DNA of 64,000 nucleotides. Source: Escherichia coli. GTDB taxonomy: Bacteria > Pseudomonadota > Gammaproteobacteria > Enterobacterales > Enterobacteriaceae. Numbering within the stretch: the stretch's first letter is position 1; the number at the start of each line of letters is the position of its first letter. The DNA lies in assembly GCF_002854065.1 (NCBI RefSeq), contig NZ_CP024147.1; one strand, given 5' to 3'. Below, one piece after another: positions 24,588 through 27,500 of this stretch. Position numbers: made by a program.

Positions 24588-27500
24588 TCACAATTTCACA
24601 CAACATACGAGCCGGACGCATAAAGTGTAAAGCCTGGCTTGCCTAATGAGTGAGCTGACTCACATTAATTGTGTTGCGCTCACTGCCCGCTTTCGAGTCG
24701 GGAAATTTGTCGCGCCAGCTGCATTAAAGAATCTGCCAACGCGCGGGGAGAAGCGGTTTGCGTATTGGGCGGAAGGGTGGTTTTTCTTTTCACCAGTGAG
24801 ACGGGCAAAAGCTGATTGCCCTTCACCGCCTGGCCCTGAGAGAGTTGCAGCAAGCGGTCCACGCTGGTTTGCCCCAGCAGGCGAAAATCCTGTTTGATGG
24901 TGGTTAACGGCGGGATATAACACGAGCTGTCTTCGGTATCGTCGTATCCCACTACCGAGATATCCGCACCAACGCGCAGCCCGGACTCGGTAATGGCGCG
25001 CATTGCGCCCAGCGCCATCTGATCGTTGGCAACCAGCATCGCAGTGGGAACGATGCCCTCATTTAGCATTTGCATGGTTTGTTGAAAACCGGACATGGCA
25101 CTCCAGTCGCCCTCCCGTTCCGCTATCGGCTGAATTTGATTGCGAGTGAGATATTTATGCCAGCCCGCCAGACGCAGACGCGCCGAGACAGAACTTAATG
25201 GGCCCGCTAACAGCGCGATTTGCTGGTGACCCAATGCGACCAGATGCTCCACGCCAAGTCGCGTACCGTCTTCATGGGAGAAAATAATACTGTTGATGGG
25301 AGTCTGGTCAGAGACATCAAGAAATAACGCCGGAACATTAGCGCAGGCAGCTTCCACAGCAATGGCATCCTGGTCATCCAGCGGATAGTTAATGATCAGC
25401 CCACTGACGCGTTGCGCGAGAAGATTGTGCACCGCCGCTTTACAGGCTTCGACGCCGCTTCGTTCTACCATCGACACCACCACGCTGGCACCCAGTTGAT
25501 CGGCGCGAGATTTAATCGCCGCGACAATTTGCGACGGCGCGTGCAGGGCCAGACTGGAGGTGGCAACGCCAATCAGCAACGACTGTTTCCCCGCCAGTTG
25601 TTGTGCCACGCGGTTGGGAATGTAATTCAGCTCCGCCATCGCCGCTTCCACTTTTTCCCGCGTTTTCGCAGAAACGTGGCTGGCCTGATTCACCACGCGG
25701 GAAACGGTCTGATAAGAGACACCGGCATACTCTGCGACATCGTATAGCGTTACTGGTTTCACATTCACCACCCTGAATTGACTCTCTTCCGGGCGCTATC
25801 ATGCCATACCGCGAAAGGTTTTGCGCCATTCGGCGGGGCTGACGCCGAAGTGAGATTTAAAATGCTGACGCCAGGTCACAGGTGAGAGAAAACCCACCTC
25901 AGCTGCTATCCGCTCAACGGGCAATTGACTGGATCCCAACAGTTCCTGGCTACGGCGTAAGCGTTCAGTAATAAGCCATTCGGCGATACTCGAACCGGTC
26001 GCTTTCATAAAATGGCGAGTTAATGTGCGGCGACTCATCATTACTCGCTGCGCCAGCGAGTCGAGATCATGCTGTTGCGCAATGTTTTGCCGCAGGTAAT
26101 CCAGCAGGAGATTAATGCGTTCATCATGGGTATTTTTCGGCACTGGTTGCTCAATAAACTGCGCCTGACCGCCGGTGCGATATGGCGGTACGACCATCCG
26201 TCGGGCAATATGGTTAGCATAGTCGCTGCCAAAATGTTGCCGAACAATATACAAACATCAATCCAGCGCCGCGGCAGTACCGGCAGAGGTAATAATGCCG
26301 TCATCGTCTACGTACAACGCGTTAATATCCAGATGTGTTTGTGGAAAACGTGCCTGAAATTCACGCTCGAACTCCCAGTGTGTGGCGGCACGCTTATTTT
26401 TCAGTAAACCTGCATAGCCGAGCACAAACGTGCCCAGGCAAAGCCCGACAATCTGTGCGCCGTTATCCCGTGCGGTCGTTAAGGCTTCCAGCAGTTTTTG
26501 TGGCGGTTTTTGTGTAATTGTTCCCCAGTAAGGAATTATCACAATATCCGCCTGGATGACTGCGGTATAGTCATGGGTGGCGGTTACGGAAAACCCATCG
26601 GCAGAGTCCACGTTTCCCGGCTTTTCAGCGCAGATAATTACGTGAAAGTGTTTTTTCTCCGCCATTTTTTCGCTAAATACGATAAACGGTACGGAAAGGT
26701 GAAAAGGACTAAAACCGGCAACGGCGATAATGGCAACAGTTAGCGGGCGCATAACACTCTTTTTCTCCGAATTAGAATGTCAACGTTTCACCATCTTCTG
26801 GTACGTTCACAAATTCGATAATTTGATTATCTCTGGCGTATTCCTTGAGCGCATCACGCGTCAGCAAACAGTGGTTTACGGCCTCCATATGTGTCGCGAC
26901 AATTTGCGCTTCTGGCAGGGTAAAATGTGTTTTGAGAATATCTTCTGCTCCCATAATTATCGCGCCATGCCCCAGAACATGCGCAAATCCGGCATTCAAC
27001 ACAACCACTTCTGGTTGGAAAGTTAGCATTGTAACCTCGACGTCGTCACGCCAGAGGGTATCGCCAGCCAGATAGAGCGTTTTCTCTGTCGGGTGCTGGA
27101 AAACAACGCCGCAGGCTGCGCCTAAACGCTTCGCCATCGCCGGGTCGGCATAGGTGCGATCGGAGCCGTGCTGCCCTGTCGTTTTATGCAGAGTAATATC
27201 GCCAAATTTAGTCTCATCGGTAAGTACGGTAAGATGTGTAAATCCTTGTTTATGCAGTGATTCAGCATCTTGCTCATTTTGCACATAAATCAGTTTATCT
27301 TTAGGGACGACGCGGGAGGCTGTTTCGTCCCAGTGATCTTCATGTAAATGAGTCACGATTAGGGCGTCAACGTTGAGTAACGTTGTTAAATCGCACGGTA
27401 ATTCTACCGTTGGATTGCGGATTTCTGCGCGTGCCGTTCCGGCAAAACCCGGATAACTTCCTTTAGGCGCGAGTAACGGGTCGATAAGAAATGTTTTGCC

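What the first reader, a model, noticed from the sequence alone, without database searches (positions are those of the whole stretch)
25763..25830. lacI promoter lies inside the 3' coding end of the upstream GlxA-type regulator gene
The minus-strand sequence GAATGGCGCAAAACCTTTCGCGGTATGGCATGATAGCGCCCGGAAGAGAGTCAATTCAGGGTGGTGAATGTGAAACC matches the K-12 lacI promoter and leader as I recall them, yet here it encodes the last residues (...EWRKTFRGMA-stop) of the GlxA-type ORF. Upstream of GAATGGCG this window diverges from K-12 (K-12 gacaccatc). This implies the lacI promoter originated as the 3' end of this gene and that K-12's junction is a deletion scar. Transcription of the upstream operon could also read into lacI.
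Basis: partly seen in the sequence, partly recalled or inferred. Interest (0 to 1): 0.5.

Follow-up and report, generated by a model that had tools for sequence, protein, structure and literature searches.

The report
lacI promoter is a gene fossil
In this E. coli strain the promoter of the lac repressor gene sits inside the last eleven codons of the neighbouring regulator gene (ovrA), and comparison with other genomes shows that laboratory K-12 and most E. coli lost that neighbour in an old 1.8-kb deletion that kept just the piece carrying the promoter.

Summary
The quoted 77 nt lie at window 25755-25831 (minus strand) and are identical to the K-12 lacI promoter and leader. Here they also form the last 11 codons and stop of a GlxA/AraC-family gene. 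That gene is z0442/ovrA of "O-island 19" in O157:H7, and in this window it is a pseudogene (Cys165 to TGA).

- The order mhpR, MBL hydrolase, ovrA, lacIZY is shared with Citrobacter sedlakii. ovrA also abuts lacI in C. rodentium and C. amalonaticus.
- The residues encoded by the -35 (W309-R310-K311) are invariant in orthologs, including Leclercia, where no lacI follows. They lie inside the Pfam HTH domain.
- K-12-type genomes (4458 of 5426) carry one 1824-bp deletion.
- K-12's "CACCATC" is decayed ovrA sequence (CCCCGCC). Other Escherichia species keep an intermediate form.
- A separate 10.8-kb deletion (487 genomes, including Nissle 1917) keeps 99 bp.

So OI-19 is ancestral DNA lost by K-12, not an acquired island. 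The TTGACA recruited by lacIQ1 lies in the scar. Read-through into lacI remains untested. This is a neat, apparently unreported instance of a known kind.

The parts
24680..25762 (-). lacI coding sequence (GTG start at 25762-25760; 360 aa plus stop)
   Evidence: ORF list; RefSeq annotation of the identical strain CUWW06; NCBIfam LacI subfamily NF007075 scores 618 bits against a cut-off of 340.
25763..25790 (-). lacI leader. Its 28 nt, GGAAGAGAGTCAATTCAGGGTGGTGAAT, are identical to K-12. The transcription start is placed at G25790 from the K-12 literature (Steege 1977 and Calos 1978, recalled, not re-tested).
   Evidence: Sequence; identity to the K-12 type. Leader length of 25-31 nt and the CAGGG Shine-Dalgarno-like motif are conserved in about 40 species.
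25798..25806 (-). lacI -10 region. CATGAT lies at 25803-25798 and is preceded by TGG (25806-25804), giving a TGn extended -10 layout. It overlaps the ovrA stop codon TGA (25801-25799).
   Evidence: Sequence. The block (G/A)TGGCAT(G/C)AT is 90-100% conserved upstream of lacI in 17 genomes without an upstream GlxA gene and in 14 freundii-complex genomes. The extended -10 reading is an inference.
25821..25826 (-). lacI -35 hexamer GCGCAA, 17 bp from the -10. It is formed by the third base of Trp309, all of Arg310 and two bases of Lys311 of ovrA.
   Evidence: W309, R310 and K311 are invariant in orthologs. The lacIq change at -35 is described in PMC4217526.
25799..25838 (-). The 40 bp of the ovrA 3' end (codons Pro306 to stop) that K-12-type genomes retain. 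The first 7 bp are decayed in K-12 (CCCCGCC to CACCATC).
25839..27662 (-). The 1824-bp segment absent from K-12-type genomes. It corresponds to 'O-island 19' and comprises the mhpR-z0443 spacer, z0443 and ovrA codons 1 to about 305.
   Evidence: Breakpoint mapping. 4458 of 5426 genomes have the K-12 junction and 435 have the segment. OI-19 is described as 1834 bp in PMC8565820.
25799..26752 (-). GlxA/AraC-family regulator gene (ortholog of z0442/ovrA). It is a pseudogene in this strain, with Cys165 TGC changed to TGA at 26260-26258.
   Evidence: RefSeq flags an 'internal stop'. Codon comparison with O157 gives 14 synonymous changes, R35H and the nonsense change. Pfam finds DJ-1_PfpI at 6-171 and HTH_18 at 233-311.
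26772..27548 (-). MBL-fold metallo-hydrolase gene (ortholog of z0443), 19 bp upstream of ovrA
   Evidence: It is paired with GlxA in Citrobacter and Leclercia.
27663..28496 (-). mhpR. Its native TAG stop (27665-27663) is the left edge of the K-12 deletion.
25898..36681 (-). Approximate extent of the independent ~10.8-kb deletion of the Nissle 1917 / M-17-type genomes. It removes mhpR, the mhp operon, mhpT, z0443 and ovrA codons 1 to about 285. What remains is yaiL, a 99-bp ovrA remnant and lacI.
   Evidence: (487 genomes).

Best explanation
The weak sigma-70 promoter of lacI is physically the 3' end of the neighbouring GlxA/AraC-family regulator gene ovrA (z0442). The parts line up as follows:
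- The -35 (GCGCAA) is made of the Trp309-Arg310-Lys311 codons of the regulator's helix-turn-helix domain.
- The spacer is made of the Thr-Phe-Arg-Gly codons.
- The -10 (CATGAT, preceded by TG) spans the Ala codon and the TGA stop.
- lacI transcription starts 8 nt after that stop.

The gene order mhpR, z0443, ovrA, lacIZYA is the older state and is shared with Citrobacter. In the lineage leading to K-12 and most E. coli, one 1824-bp deletion joined the mhpR stop codon to ovrA codon 306. It left 40 bp of ovrA, which is just the promoter. The first 7 bp, freed from coding constraint, then decayed.

Other lineages lost ovrA by different deletions, and each kept the same end. This window shows the undeleted state, with ovrA itself inactivated by a nonsense mutation.

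Shown: the anatomy, the homology, the breakpoints and the distribution. Inferred: that the embedded promoter fires here as it does in K-12, and that retention of the end reflects selection for LacI expression.
For: **Sequence and reading frame:**

**Identity to the K-12 promoter:** 70/70 from GAATGG to the lacI start.

**Coding nature of the -35 DNA:**
- The C-terminus is invariant in 13 orthologs at 67-80% identity.
- The Pfam HTH_18 and HTH_AraC domains end at residue 311.
- The sequence is conserved in Leclercia, where a hairpin rather than lacI follows the gene.

**Ancestral order:** C. sedlakii has the same order as this window. GlxA abuts lacI in C. rodentium, C. amalonaticus, C. sedlakii and Citrobacter HRGM66.

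**Deletion:** exactly 1824 bp, at the same junction in E. coli, E. whittamii, Escherichia sp. E1V33 and strain SCPM-O-B-8794. The scar shows a graded series: CCCCGCC, then CGCCGCC or TACCGCC, then CACCATC or AACCATC. The stop codon runs TAG, then TAA, then TGA.

**Counts:** 4458 K-12-type, 435 full and 487 yaiL-remnant genomes out of 5426.

**Independent truncations that all keep the end:**
- M-17/Nissle type, 99 bp.
- Escherichia sp. MOD1-EC7003, with multiple internal deletions.
- C. koseri and Budvicia remnants.
- Plasmid cassette with an 85-bp remnant on 1401 plasmids.

**Conservation in non-coding remnants:** only TGGCAT(G/C)AT and the A-run of the -35 stay conserved.

**OI-19 looks like long-resident core DNA:**
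- It is chromosomal and single-copy, with 97.3-100% identity among the 435 genomes.
- 14 of its 16 differences from O157 are synonymous.
- It contains only two genes and no mobility genes.
Against: - No transcript data exist for a strain with the full arrangement, so use of the embedded promoter there is assumed from sequence identity to K-12.
- The generic promoter scan does not flag the site. This is expected for a weak promoter with a 2/6 -35, but it is not positive evidence.
- The 7-bp scar homology is modest on its own: 4/7 in K-12 and 6/7 in E. whittamii and E1V33.
- The deletion allele occurs in several Escherichia species while the full allele persists within E. coli. That requires either an old polymorphism, spread of one allele by recombination, or recurrence at the same microhomology. 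I did not resolve which.
- The C-terminal tail after ...TFR varies among orthologs, so the origin of the -10 block (ovrA tail or lac side) is not settled.
Confidence: 0.85

Rival explanations
1. Hybrid origin. The -10 block and leader always belonged to the lac gene cluster. That cluster landed against, or just inside, the variable tail of ovrA, so only the -35 and spacer derive from ovrA codons. The ovrA frame simply reads on into lac DNA until it meets a stop. The K-12 deletion story is unchanged.
For: - The block TGGCAT(G/C)ATAGCG is conserved upstream of every LacI ortholog. This includes Tatumella, Kluyvera ascorbata and Klebsiella spallanzanii, where nothing upstream of it resembles ovrA (8-11 of 24 matches, at null level).
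- The ovrA tail after TFR varies among orthologs: GMA, GVAS, GAA, GV, MRS, TQSQAG, NASS and ANL.
- In C. freundii, ovrA has its own separate end (…GGC GCA GCG TAA), and the -10 block sits 790 bp away next to lacI.
Against: - In most other lineages the 24 nt upstream of the block still resemble the ovrA codons in fixed register. These include Serratia, Salmonella arizonae and diarizonae, Pseudocitrobacter, Budvicia, C. koseri and the freundii complex, at 13-21 of 24 matches against a null of 9.3 +/- 1.7. Their lac clusters therefore once lay next to ovrA.
- The tails G-M/V/A-A of Escherichia and Citrobacter ovrA resemble each other even in C. freundii.
- Leclercia's tail DNA (CGT ATG CGA TCG TAG) is loosely similar to GGT ATG GCA TGA TAG.
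Confidence: 0.25
2. O-island 19 is a horizontally acquired island, as the EHEC literature labels it. It inserted into a K-12-like mhpR-lacI spacer, and the ovrA frame extends by chance into the pre-existing lacI promoter.
For: - It is called an O157 'genomic island' absent from K-12 (PMC8565820 and PMC10877973).
- Its G+C content is slightly lower (0.46-0.52) than that of the flanks (0.54-0.58).
- It is present in only 8% of complete E. coli genomes.
Against: - The residues encoded by the supposedly pre-existing promoter are invariant parts of the AraC-type domain in orthologs from four other genera, one of them without lacI.
- The same gene order occurs in Citrobacter.
- K-12 and Nissle types retain different lengths (40 and 99 bp) of the same gene end.
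- The island has no mobility genes, is single-copy and chromosomal, and shows core-like diversity and mostly synonymous variation.
Confidence: 0.03
3. In genomes with the full arrangement, lacI is expressed mainly by read-through of z0443-ovrA (or mhpR) transcripts, and the embedded promoter is a minor contributor. lacI would effectively be the third gene of an operon there.
For: - Only 36 bp separate the ovrA stop from the lacI start.
- There is no terminator-like site on that strand between mhpR and lacI.
- The RNA across the junction has no unusual structure (z = -0.5).
- There is no Rfam element.
Against: - The promoter is base-for-base the one that suffices in K-12.
- In the EDL933 RpoS study, Z0443 is 10-fold RpoS-dependent, but Z0442 and lacI are not listed as such (PMC2907692). 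This is weak evidence.
- In K-12, mhpR and lacI respond in opposite directions to CRP (bioRxiv 10.1101/2025.11.14.688166).
- In this window the premature stop in ovrA would favour Rho-dependent polarity before lacI (inference).
Confidence: 0.1

Closest known systems
The E. coli K-12 lacI promoter (PlacI; Calos 1978), with its up-mutations lacIq and lacIQ1 (Calos & Miller 1981; summarised in PMC4217526)
   Same: The sequence is identical from 70 nt upstream of the lacI start codon to that start codon. That stretch holds GCGCAA, a 17-bp spacer, CATGAT and the 28-nt leader.
   Different: - Here the promoter is inside an ORF. The lacIq change (C to T in GCGCAA) would be Arg310 to Cys at an invariant residue of ovrA (inference).
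- The TTGACA that lacIQ1 moves to 18 bp from the -10 exists only in the K-12-type scar (CGT TGA CAC). It is absent from this window and from E. whittamii, E1V33 and some E. coli.
O-island 19 of E. coli O157:H7 EDL933 (z0442/ovrA plus z0443; Liu et al. 2020 J Infect Dis, as reviewed in PMC8565820 and PMC10877973)
   Same: Same two genes at the same place between mhpR and lacI. The segment is 98.5% identical in nucleotide sequence. RefSeq names some copies 'ovrA'.
   Different: - In this window ovrA carries a premature stop.
- The literature treats the segment as an acquired island and does not mention lacI. The comparative evidence here says it is ancestral and that K-12 lost it.
Promoters embedded in the 3' coding region of the upstream gene, and promoters surviving in gene remnants after deletion (a general, well-known bacterial pattern)
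   Same: A functional promoter for the downstream gene overlaps coding sequence of the upstream gene. After gene loss, only the promoter-bearing fragment persists.
   Different: - This instance concerns a textbook promoter.
- It has a natural series of independent truncations, reaching from 44 to about 255 nt upstream of the lacI start codon.
- It travels with lac on more than 1400 plasmids.
FtrA / GlxA-family AraC regulators (DJ-1/PfpI-like N-terminal domain plus AraC HTH)
   Same: Same two-domain architecture. The best NCBIfam match is FtrA, covering residues 5-314.
   Different: The score of 323.9 bits is below the FtrA equivalog cut-off of 425, so it is a relative and not an FtrA ortholog. 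Its conserved partner gene is an MBL-fold hydrolase.

Membership tests
K-12 lacI promoter (sigma-70 type) | Sequence identity to the mapped K-12 promoter and leader | tested here: met
   70/70 identical from GAATGG to the lacI GTG; exact 77-nt match of the quoted string.
K-12 lacI promoter (sigma-70 type) | Two hexamers with 16-18 bp spacing | tested here: met
   GCGCAA, 17 bp, CATGAT. The generic scan threshold (9 of 12) is not reached, as expected for this weak promoter.
K-12 lacI promoter (sigma-70 type) | Transcription start at the expected G in this genomic context | not testable with these tools
   Needs 5'-end mapping in a strain with the full arrangement.
GlxA/AraC-family regulator OvrA (z0442) | DJ-1/PfpI-like N-terminal domain plus C-terminal AraC-type HTH | tested here: met
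   Pfam DJ-1_PfpI at 6-171 (4.8e-12) and HTH_18 at 233-311 (3.4e-19), tested on the intact O157 allele.
GlxA/AraC-family regulator OvrA (z0442) | Intact reading frame | tested here: not met
   Window allele has TGC to TGA at codon 165 (26260-26258). RefSeq marks the identical strain's gene as a pseudogene with an internal stop.
FtrA equivalog (NCBIfam NF006902) | Score at or above the curated cut-off | tested here: not met
   323.9 bits against a cut-off of 425.
Horizontally acquired genomic island (as OI-19 is labelled) | Absent from the ancestral state of the locus in related genera | tested here: not met
   Same genes in the same order in C. sedlakii. The MBL-GlxA pair sits next to lacI in many Citrobacter.
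Horizontally acquired genomic island (as OI-19 is labelled) | Mobility genes or multiple or plasmid copies | tested here: not met
   The segment has two genes only. All 435 copies are chromosomal, with one per genome.
Horizontally acquired genomic island (as OI-19 is labelled) | Deviant base composition | tested here: inconclusive
   G+C is 0.46-0.52 against 0.54-0.58 in the flanks. The difference is mild.
Deletion scar | Retained fragment homologous to the end of a gene that is intact in relatives, with an outgroup showing the intact state | tested here: met
Deletion scar | Breakpoints definable to the base, with microhomology | tested here: inconclusive
   The two sides read ACGCTAG and GCGTCAG, so the join is ambiguous within about 4 nt (2-nt CG or AG microhomology). 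Strains reading CGC TGA favour a join just after the native TAG.

The most novel reading that the evidence does not exclude
Most or all enterobacterial lacI promoters, chromosomal and plasmid-borne, descend from a single co-option of the last codons of ovrA. The remnant would then be a built-in tag recording that each lac cluster once lay next to ovrA, and its varying length would allow the origin and horizontal spread of the lac operon to be reconstructed. The notorious weakness of PlacI would be a legacy of its -35 having been locked by the invariant Trp-Arg-Lys codons of a DNA-binding domain.
Probability: 0.45. Interest if true: 0.6.

Novelty: new member of a known kind. Interest (0 to 1): 0.5.

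Why it matters
- **History of a much-used part.** PlacI is one of the most copied pieces of DNA in molecular biology, and every pET-type vector carries GACACCATCGAATGGCGCAAAACC… The evidence shows that it is a fossil of a neighbouring regulator's DNA-binding domain, and that the bases just upstream are a deletion scar. This explains why the promoter is weak. It also explains where the lacIQ1 TTGACA comes from: the mhpR stop codon plus a decayed proline codon.
- **Status of OI-19 and OvrA.** "O-island 19" and its virulence regulator OvrA become ancestral Escherichia/Citrobacter DNA lost by K-12, rather than an EHEC acquisition.
- **Practical caveat.** A whole-ORF deletion of ovrA removes the lacI -35 and -10.
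- **A marker for lac history.** The remnant offers a way to trace how lac clusters moved, including onto more than 1400 plasmids, mostly from Klebsiella.

Tried and rejected
- **Templated filler.** I looked for a copy of K-12's TTGACACCATC elsewhere in the window as a source of filler DNA. There was no exact copy, and the 1-mismatch hits were at chance level. The idea was dropped once the intermediate scars in other Escherichia species explained the bases as decayed ovrA sequence.
- **Join inside the last mhpR codon.** My first junction model required re-creation of the mhpR stop. A simple join at that point would extend MhpR from 277 to 386 residues. I replaced it with a join just after the native TAG, because some E. 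coli still read CGC TGA.
- **Free local alignment.** Aligning the 50 nt upstream of the -10 block to the ovrA end was significant for only a subset of genera. I had overstated universality from eyeballing. A fixed-register test recovered graded support but none for Tatumella, Kluyvera ascorbata or Klebsiella spallanzanii, so the 'all lacI promoters' claim is kept only as the novel case.
- **Checks that gave nothing at the junction.** These were the consensus promoter and terminator scan, Rfam and RNA folding.
- **Literature.** Searches for a prior statement of the promoter/ovrA relationship found none. They found only the OI-19/OvrA reviews, a CRP-lacI preprint and the lacIq/lacIQ1 summary. 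The library lacks most subscription journals, so absence is not proof.
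Full report
**1. What is in the window**

The window is E. coli and is 100% identical over the tested 2.4 kb to strain CUWW06. On the minus strand the order is as follows:

| Gene | Window coordinates |
|---|---|
| mhpR | 28496-27663 |
| MBL-fold hydrolase gene | 27548-26772 |
| GlxA/AraC-family regulator gene | 26752-25799 |
| lacI | 25762-24680 |
| lacZ | 24557-21483 |

In the frame of the regulator gene it reads E W R K T F R G M A stop.

Against the K-12 promoter as described in the literature (PMC4217526; the start site is my recollection of Steege 1977 and Calos 1978), the elements fall as follows:
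- The -35 GCGCAA is at 25826-25821.
- The spacer is 17 bp.
- The -10 CATGAT is at 25803-25798 and is preceded by TGG.
- The regulator's TGA stop is at 25801-25799, inside the -10.
- The start G is at 25790.
- The lacI GTG is at 25762.

In this strain the regulator is a pseudogene, with Cys165 TGC changed to TGA at 26260-26258. The other 15 differences from the intact O157:H7 allele are 14 synonymous changes and one missense change.

**2. Identity of the upstream genes**

The two genes are z0443 and z0442 of O157:H7 EDL933. Together they form "O-island 19", described as a 1834-bp island. z0442 has been named ovrA and is reported to activate LEE genes through ler (PMC8565820 and PMC10877973). 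Those papers do not mention lacI.

Pfam finds a DJ-1/PfpI-like domain (residues 6-171) and HTH_18 (233-311). The nearest NCBIfam model is FtrA, but the score is below its cut-off.

**3. Is the promoter DNA real coding sequence?**

Yes. Thirteen orthologs were aligned, at 67-80% identity, from Escherichia, Citrobacter, Leclercia, Enterobacter and Huaxiibacter. All end with FGVSPAEWRKTFR followed by a short variable tail. W309, R310 and K311, the -35 codons, are invariant and lie within the Pfam HTH models.

In Leclercia adecarboxylata the gene is followed by a hairpin and a convergent gene, not by lacI. It still reads GAG TGG CGC AAA ACG TTC CGT. The -35 and spacer therefore derive from ovrA codons, not the reverse.

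**4. Which arrangement is older?**

- C. sedlakii has mhpCBA / mhpR / MBL / GlxA / lacI-lacZ-lacY, exactly as in this window.
- C. rodentium, C. amalonaticus and others have GlxA running into the lacI promoter with a 30-36 bp gap.
- Amino-acid identities between E. coli and C. sedlakii are similar across the block: MhpR 89%, MBL 77%, GlxA 77%, LacI 83% and LacZ N-terminus 78%.
- Within E. coli the segment is always chromosomal and single-copy, and it is 97.3-100% identical among 435 genomes.
- Its G+C content is only mildly low.

This is the profile of long-resident DNA, not of a recent island.

**5. The K-12 junction**

Among 5426 complete E. coli genomes the junction types are:

| Junction type | Genomes |
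|---|---|
| K-12-type | 4458 |
| Full arrangement | 435 |
| yaiL, 99-bp ovrA remnant, lacI (includes Nissle 1917 and M-17) | 487 |

The K-12 type lacks exactly 1824 bp, corresponding to window 25839-27662.

The sequences of other Escherichia species show it lies 7-11 bp further upstream:

| Genome | Sequence at the junction |
|---|---|
| Intact gene | …GGCG TCAG CCCCGCC GAATGG |
| E. whittamii and Escherichia sp. E1V33 | …TTA CGT TAA CGCCGCC GAATGG |
| Strain SCPM-O-B-8794 | …CGT TAA TACCGCC AAATGG |
| K-12 | …CGT TGA CACCATC GAATGG |
| Two other E. coli | …CGC TGA CACCATC and …CGC TGA AACCATC |

All have the same length. The CGC variants match the intact allele's …TTA CGC TAG. The most economical reading is therefore a join directly after the native mhpR stop (…CGC TAG | CCCCGCC…). 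The two sides share only 2-nt microhomology.

After the join, the stop drifted from TAG to TAA or TGA, and the now non-coding proline and alanine codons decayed. K-12 thus retains 40 bp of ovrA.

The deletion allele is shared by several Escherichia species, while the full allele persists in E. coli. I did not resolve whether this reflects an old polymorphism, recombinational spread or recurrence.

**6. Independent truncations**

- The Nissle/M-17 type results from a separate deletion of about 10.8 kb (window about 25898-36681). It removes mhpR, the mhp operon, mhpT, z0443 and ovrA codons 1 to about 285.
- Escherichia sp. MOD1-EC7003 has yet another pattern. A deletion of about 9.9 kb ends in ovrA codon 15, and several internal deletions follow, with the 3' end intact.
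- C. koseri and Budvicia aquatica have clear ovrA 3' remnants without the gene.
- An E. coli-like lac cassette with an 85-bp remnant, next to an alcohol dehydrogenase gene, is on 1401 plasmids, 1201 of them from Klebsiella.
- The C. freundii complex has a complete ovrA, a reverse-strand methyltransferase gene, and then a second, decayed ovrA-like stretch in front of lacI.

**7. What stays conserved once coding constraint is gone**

In 17 genomes with no upstream ovrA, the block (G/A)TGGCAT(G/C)AT is 90-100% conserved and the A-run of the -35 is about 80-90% conserved. The rest falls to 30-50%. That is the pattern expected if only promoter function is selected. The TG one base before the hexamer suggests an extended -10 (inference).

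I then asked how far back the ovrA origin reaches. A fixed-register comparison of the 24 nt upstream of the block against ovrA codons gave these matches, against a null of 9.3 +/- 1.7:

| Lineage | Matches out of 24 |
|---|---|
| Budvicia, C. koseri, Serratia, C. freundii, Citrobacter MGH106 | 15-21 |
| Salmonella arizonae and diarizonae, Pseudocitrobacter | 13-14 |
| Kluyvera genomosp. 1, Pseudenterobacter | 13 |
| Tatumella, Kluyvera ascorbata, Klebsiella spallanzanii | 8-11 |

A single origin for all lacI promoters is therefore possible but not shown. The -10 block may have come from the lac side (rival 1).

**8. Links to the classical up-mutations**

lacIq is a CG to TA change at -35. lacIQ1 is a 15-bp deletion that puts an ideal TTGACA 18 bp from the -10 (PMC4217526).

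In K-12-type DNA a TTGACA lies 33 bp from CATGAT, and 33 minus 15 is 18. That TTGACA is the scar itself: the last base of mhpR's Arg codon, its TGA stop, and CA from the decayed proline codon. It is absent from this window, from E. whittamii and E1V33, and from some E. coli.

In the intact gene the lacIq change would be Arg310 to Cys at an invariant residue (inference). A coding constraint on the -35 is therefore plausible.

**9. Read-through**

No terminator-like site lies on the minus strand between mhpR and lacI. The RNA across the junction is not unusually structured (z = -0.5), and Rfam finds nothing. Read-through is therefore possible.

The only indirect data are weak and point against a large contribution. 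Z0443 is 10-fold RpoS-dependent in EDL933, while Z0442 and lacI are not listed as RpoS-dependent (PMC2907692). In K-12, mhpR and lacI respond oppositely to CRP. In this window the premature stop in ovrA would favour polarity (inference).

**10. Verdict**

The kind of thing found here is well known: a promoter embedded in an upstream gene that survives in a deletion remnant. I found no prior statement of it for PlacI or ovrA, but the library is incomplete.

It is a satisfying piece of molecular archaeology on a textbook element. It corrects the view of OI-19 as an acquired island and flags a practical caveat for ovrA deletions. I rate it of moderate interest.

Noticed in passing
window 26258-26260 (minus strand): The ovrA/GlxA gene of this strain carries a premature TGA in place of the invariant Cys165 codon. 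The rest of the gene differs from O157:H7 almost only at synonymous sites, so the inactivation looks recent.
   Followed up: yes
window 34999-35340: Tandem array of 3.4 copies of a 101-bp unit made of REP-like palindromes (GCCGGATGCGGCGTAAACGCCTTATCCGGCCTAC…) between the mhp operon and mhpT. A related copy lies near window 37300-37400. It looks like an ordinary BIME/REP cluster.
   Followed up: partly
L005 5955-6743 (C. freundii CP056850.1); also L019-L022, L025-L027, L030-L032, L047, L048: In the C. freundii complex a 202-aa methyltransferase gene on the opposite strand sits between a complete GlxA gene and lacI, and a second, decayed GlxA-3'-like stretch precedes lacI. The two form direct repeats flanking the methyltransferase. 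Whether this state or the direct GlxA-lacI adjacency is older is unresolved.
   Followed up: partly
L007 6744-10832 (C. freundii CP056644.1): lacI and lacZ are called as one 1362-residue product carrying both LacI and beta-galactosidase domains. This is either a natural lacI-lacZ fusion or an assembly or gene-calling artefact.
   Followed up: no
L013 (Lamprocystis purpurea scaffold); probably also L059 (SAR11 contig) and L066 (Mangrovicoccus): lacI copies 92-99% identical to E. coli occur in unrelated organisms. L013 has the junction GTCGAGATCCCGGACACCATCGAATGG, which I recognise (from memory) as a pET-type vector junction, so this is probably cloning-vector contamination of the assemblies.
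   Followed up: partly
L015 2300-3300 and 1401 plasmid records (e.g. CP035776.1 164797-165905): An E. coli-like lacI (96% identical) with an 85-bp ovrA remnant lies next to a zinc-dependent alcohol dehydrogenase gene on large, mostly conjugative plasmids. 1201 of them are from Klebsiella. Copies also appear in Pantoea conspicua and Leclercia NCTC13032 assemblies.
   Followed up: partly
L038 about 2925-2960 (Kluyvera ascorbata): A hairpin (CACCTCC-TATTTTTATGG-GAGGTG) abuts the lacI -10 block where other species have the -35 region. The promoter there may rely on the TGn plus -10 element alone, or the hairpin may be the upstream gene's terminator.
   Followed up: no
L017 730-1175 (Escherichia sp. 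MOD1-EC7003): This locus has yaiL followed by an ovrA pseudogene reduced to patches (codons 15-25, 170-186 and 211 to the end, with further gaps) and then lacI. It is an erosion pattern independent of both the K-12 and Nissle types.
   Followed up: yes
L072 about 300-310 (E. coli E2865): Two adjacent substitutions lie in the discriminator just upstream of the lacI start (AGCGTTCGG instead of AGCGCCCGG) in an otherwise K-12-type promoter. Any effect on lacI expression is unknown.
   Followed up: no
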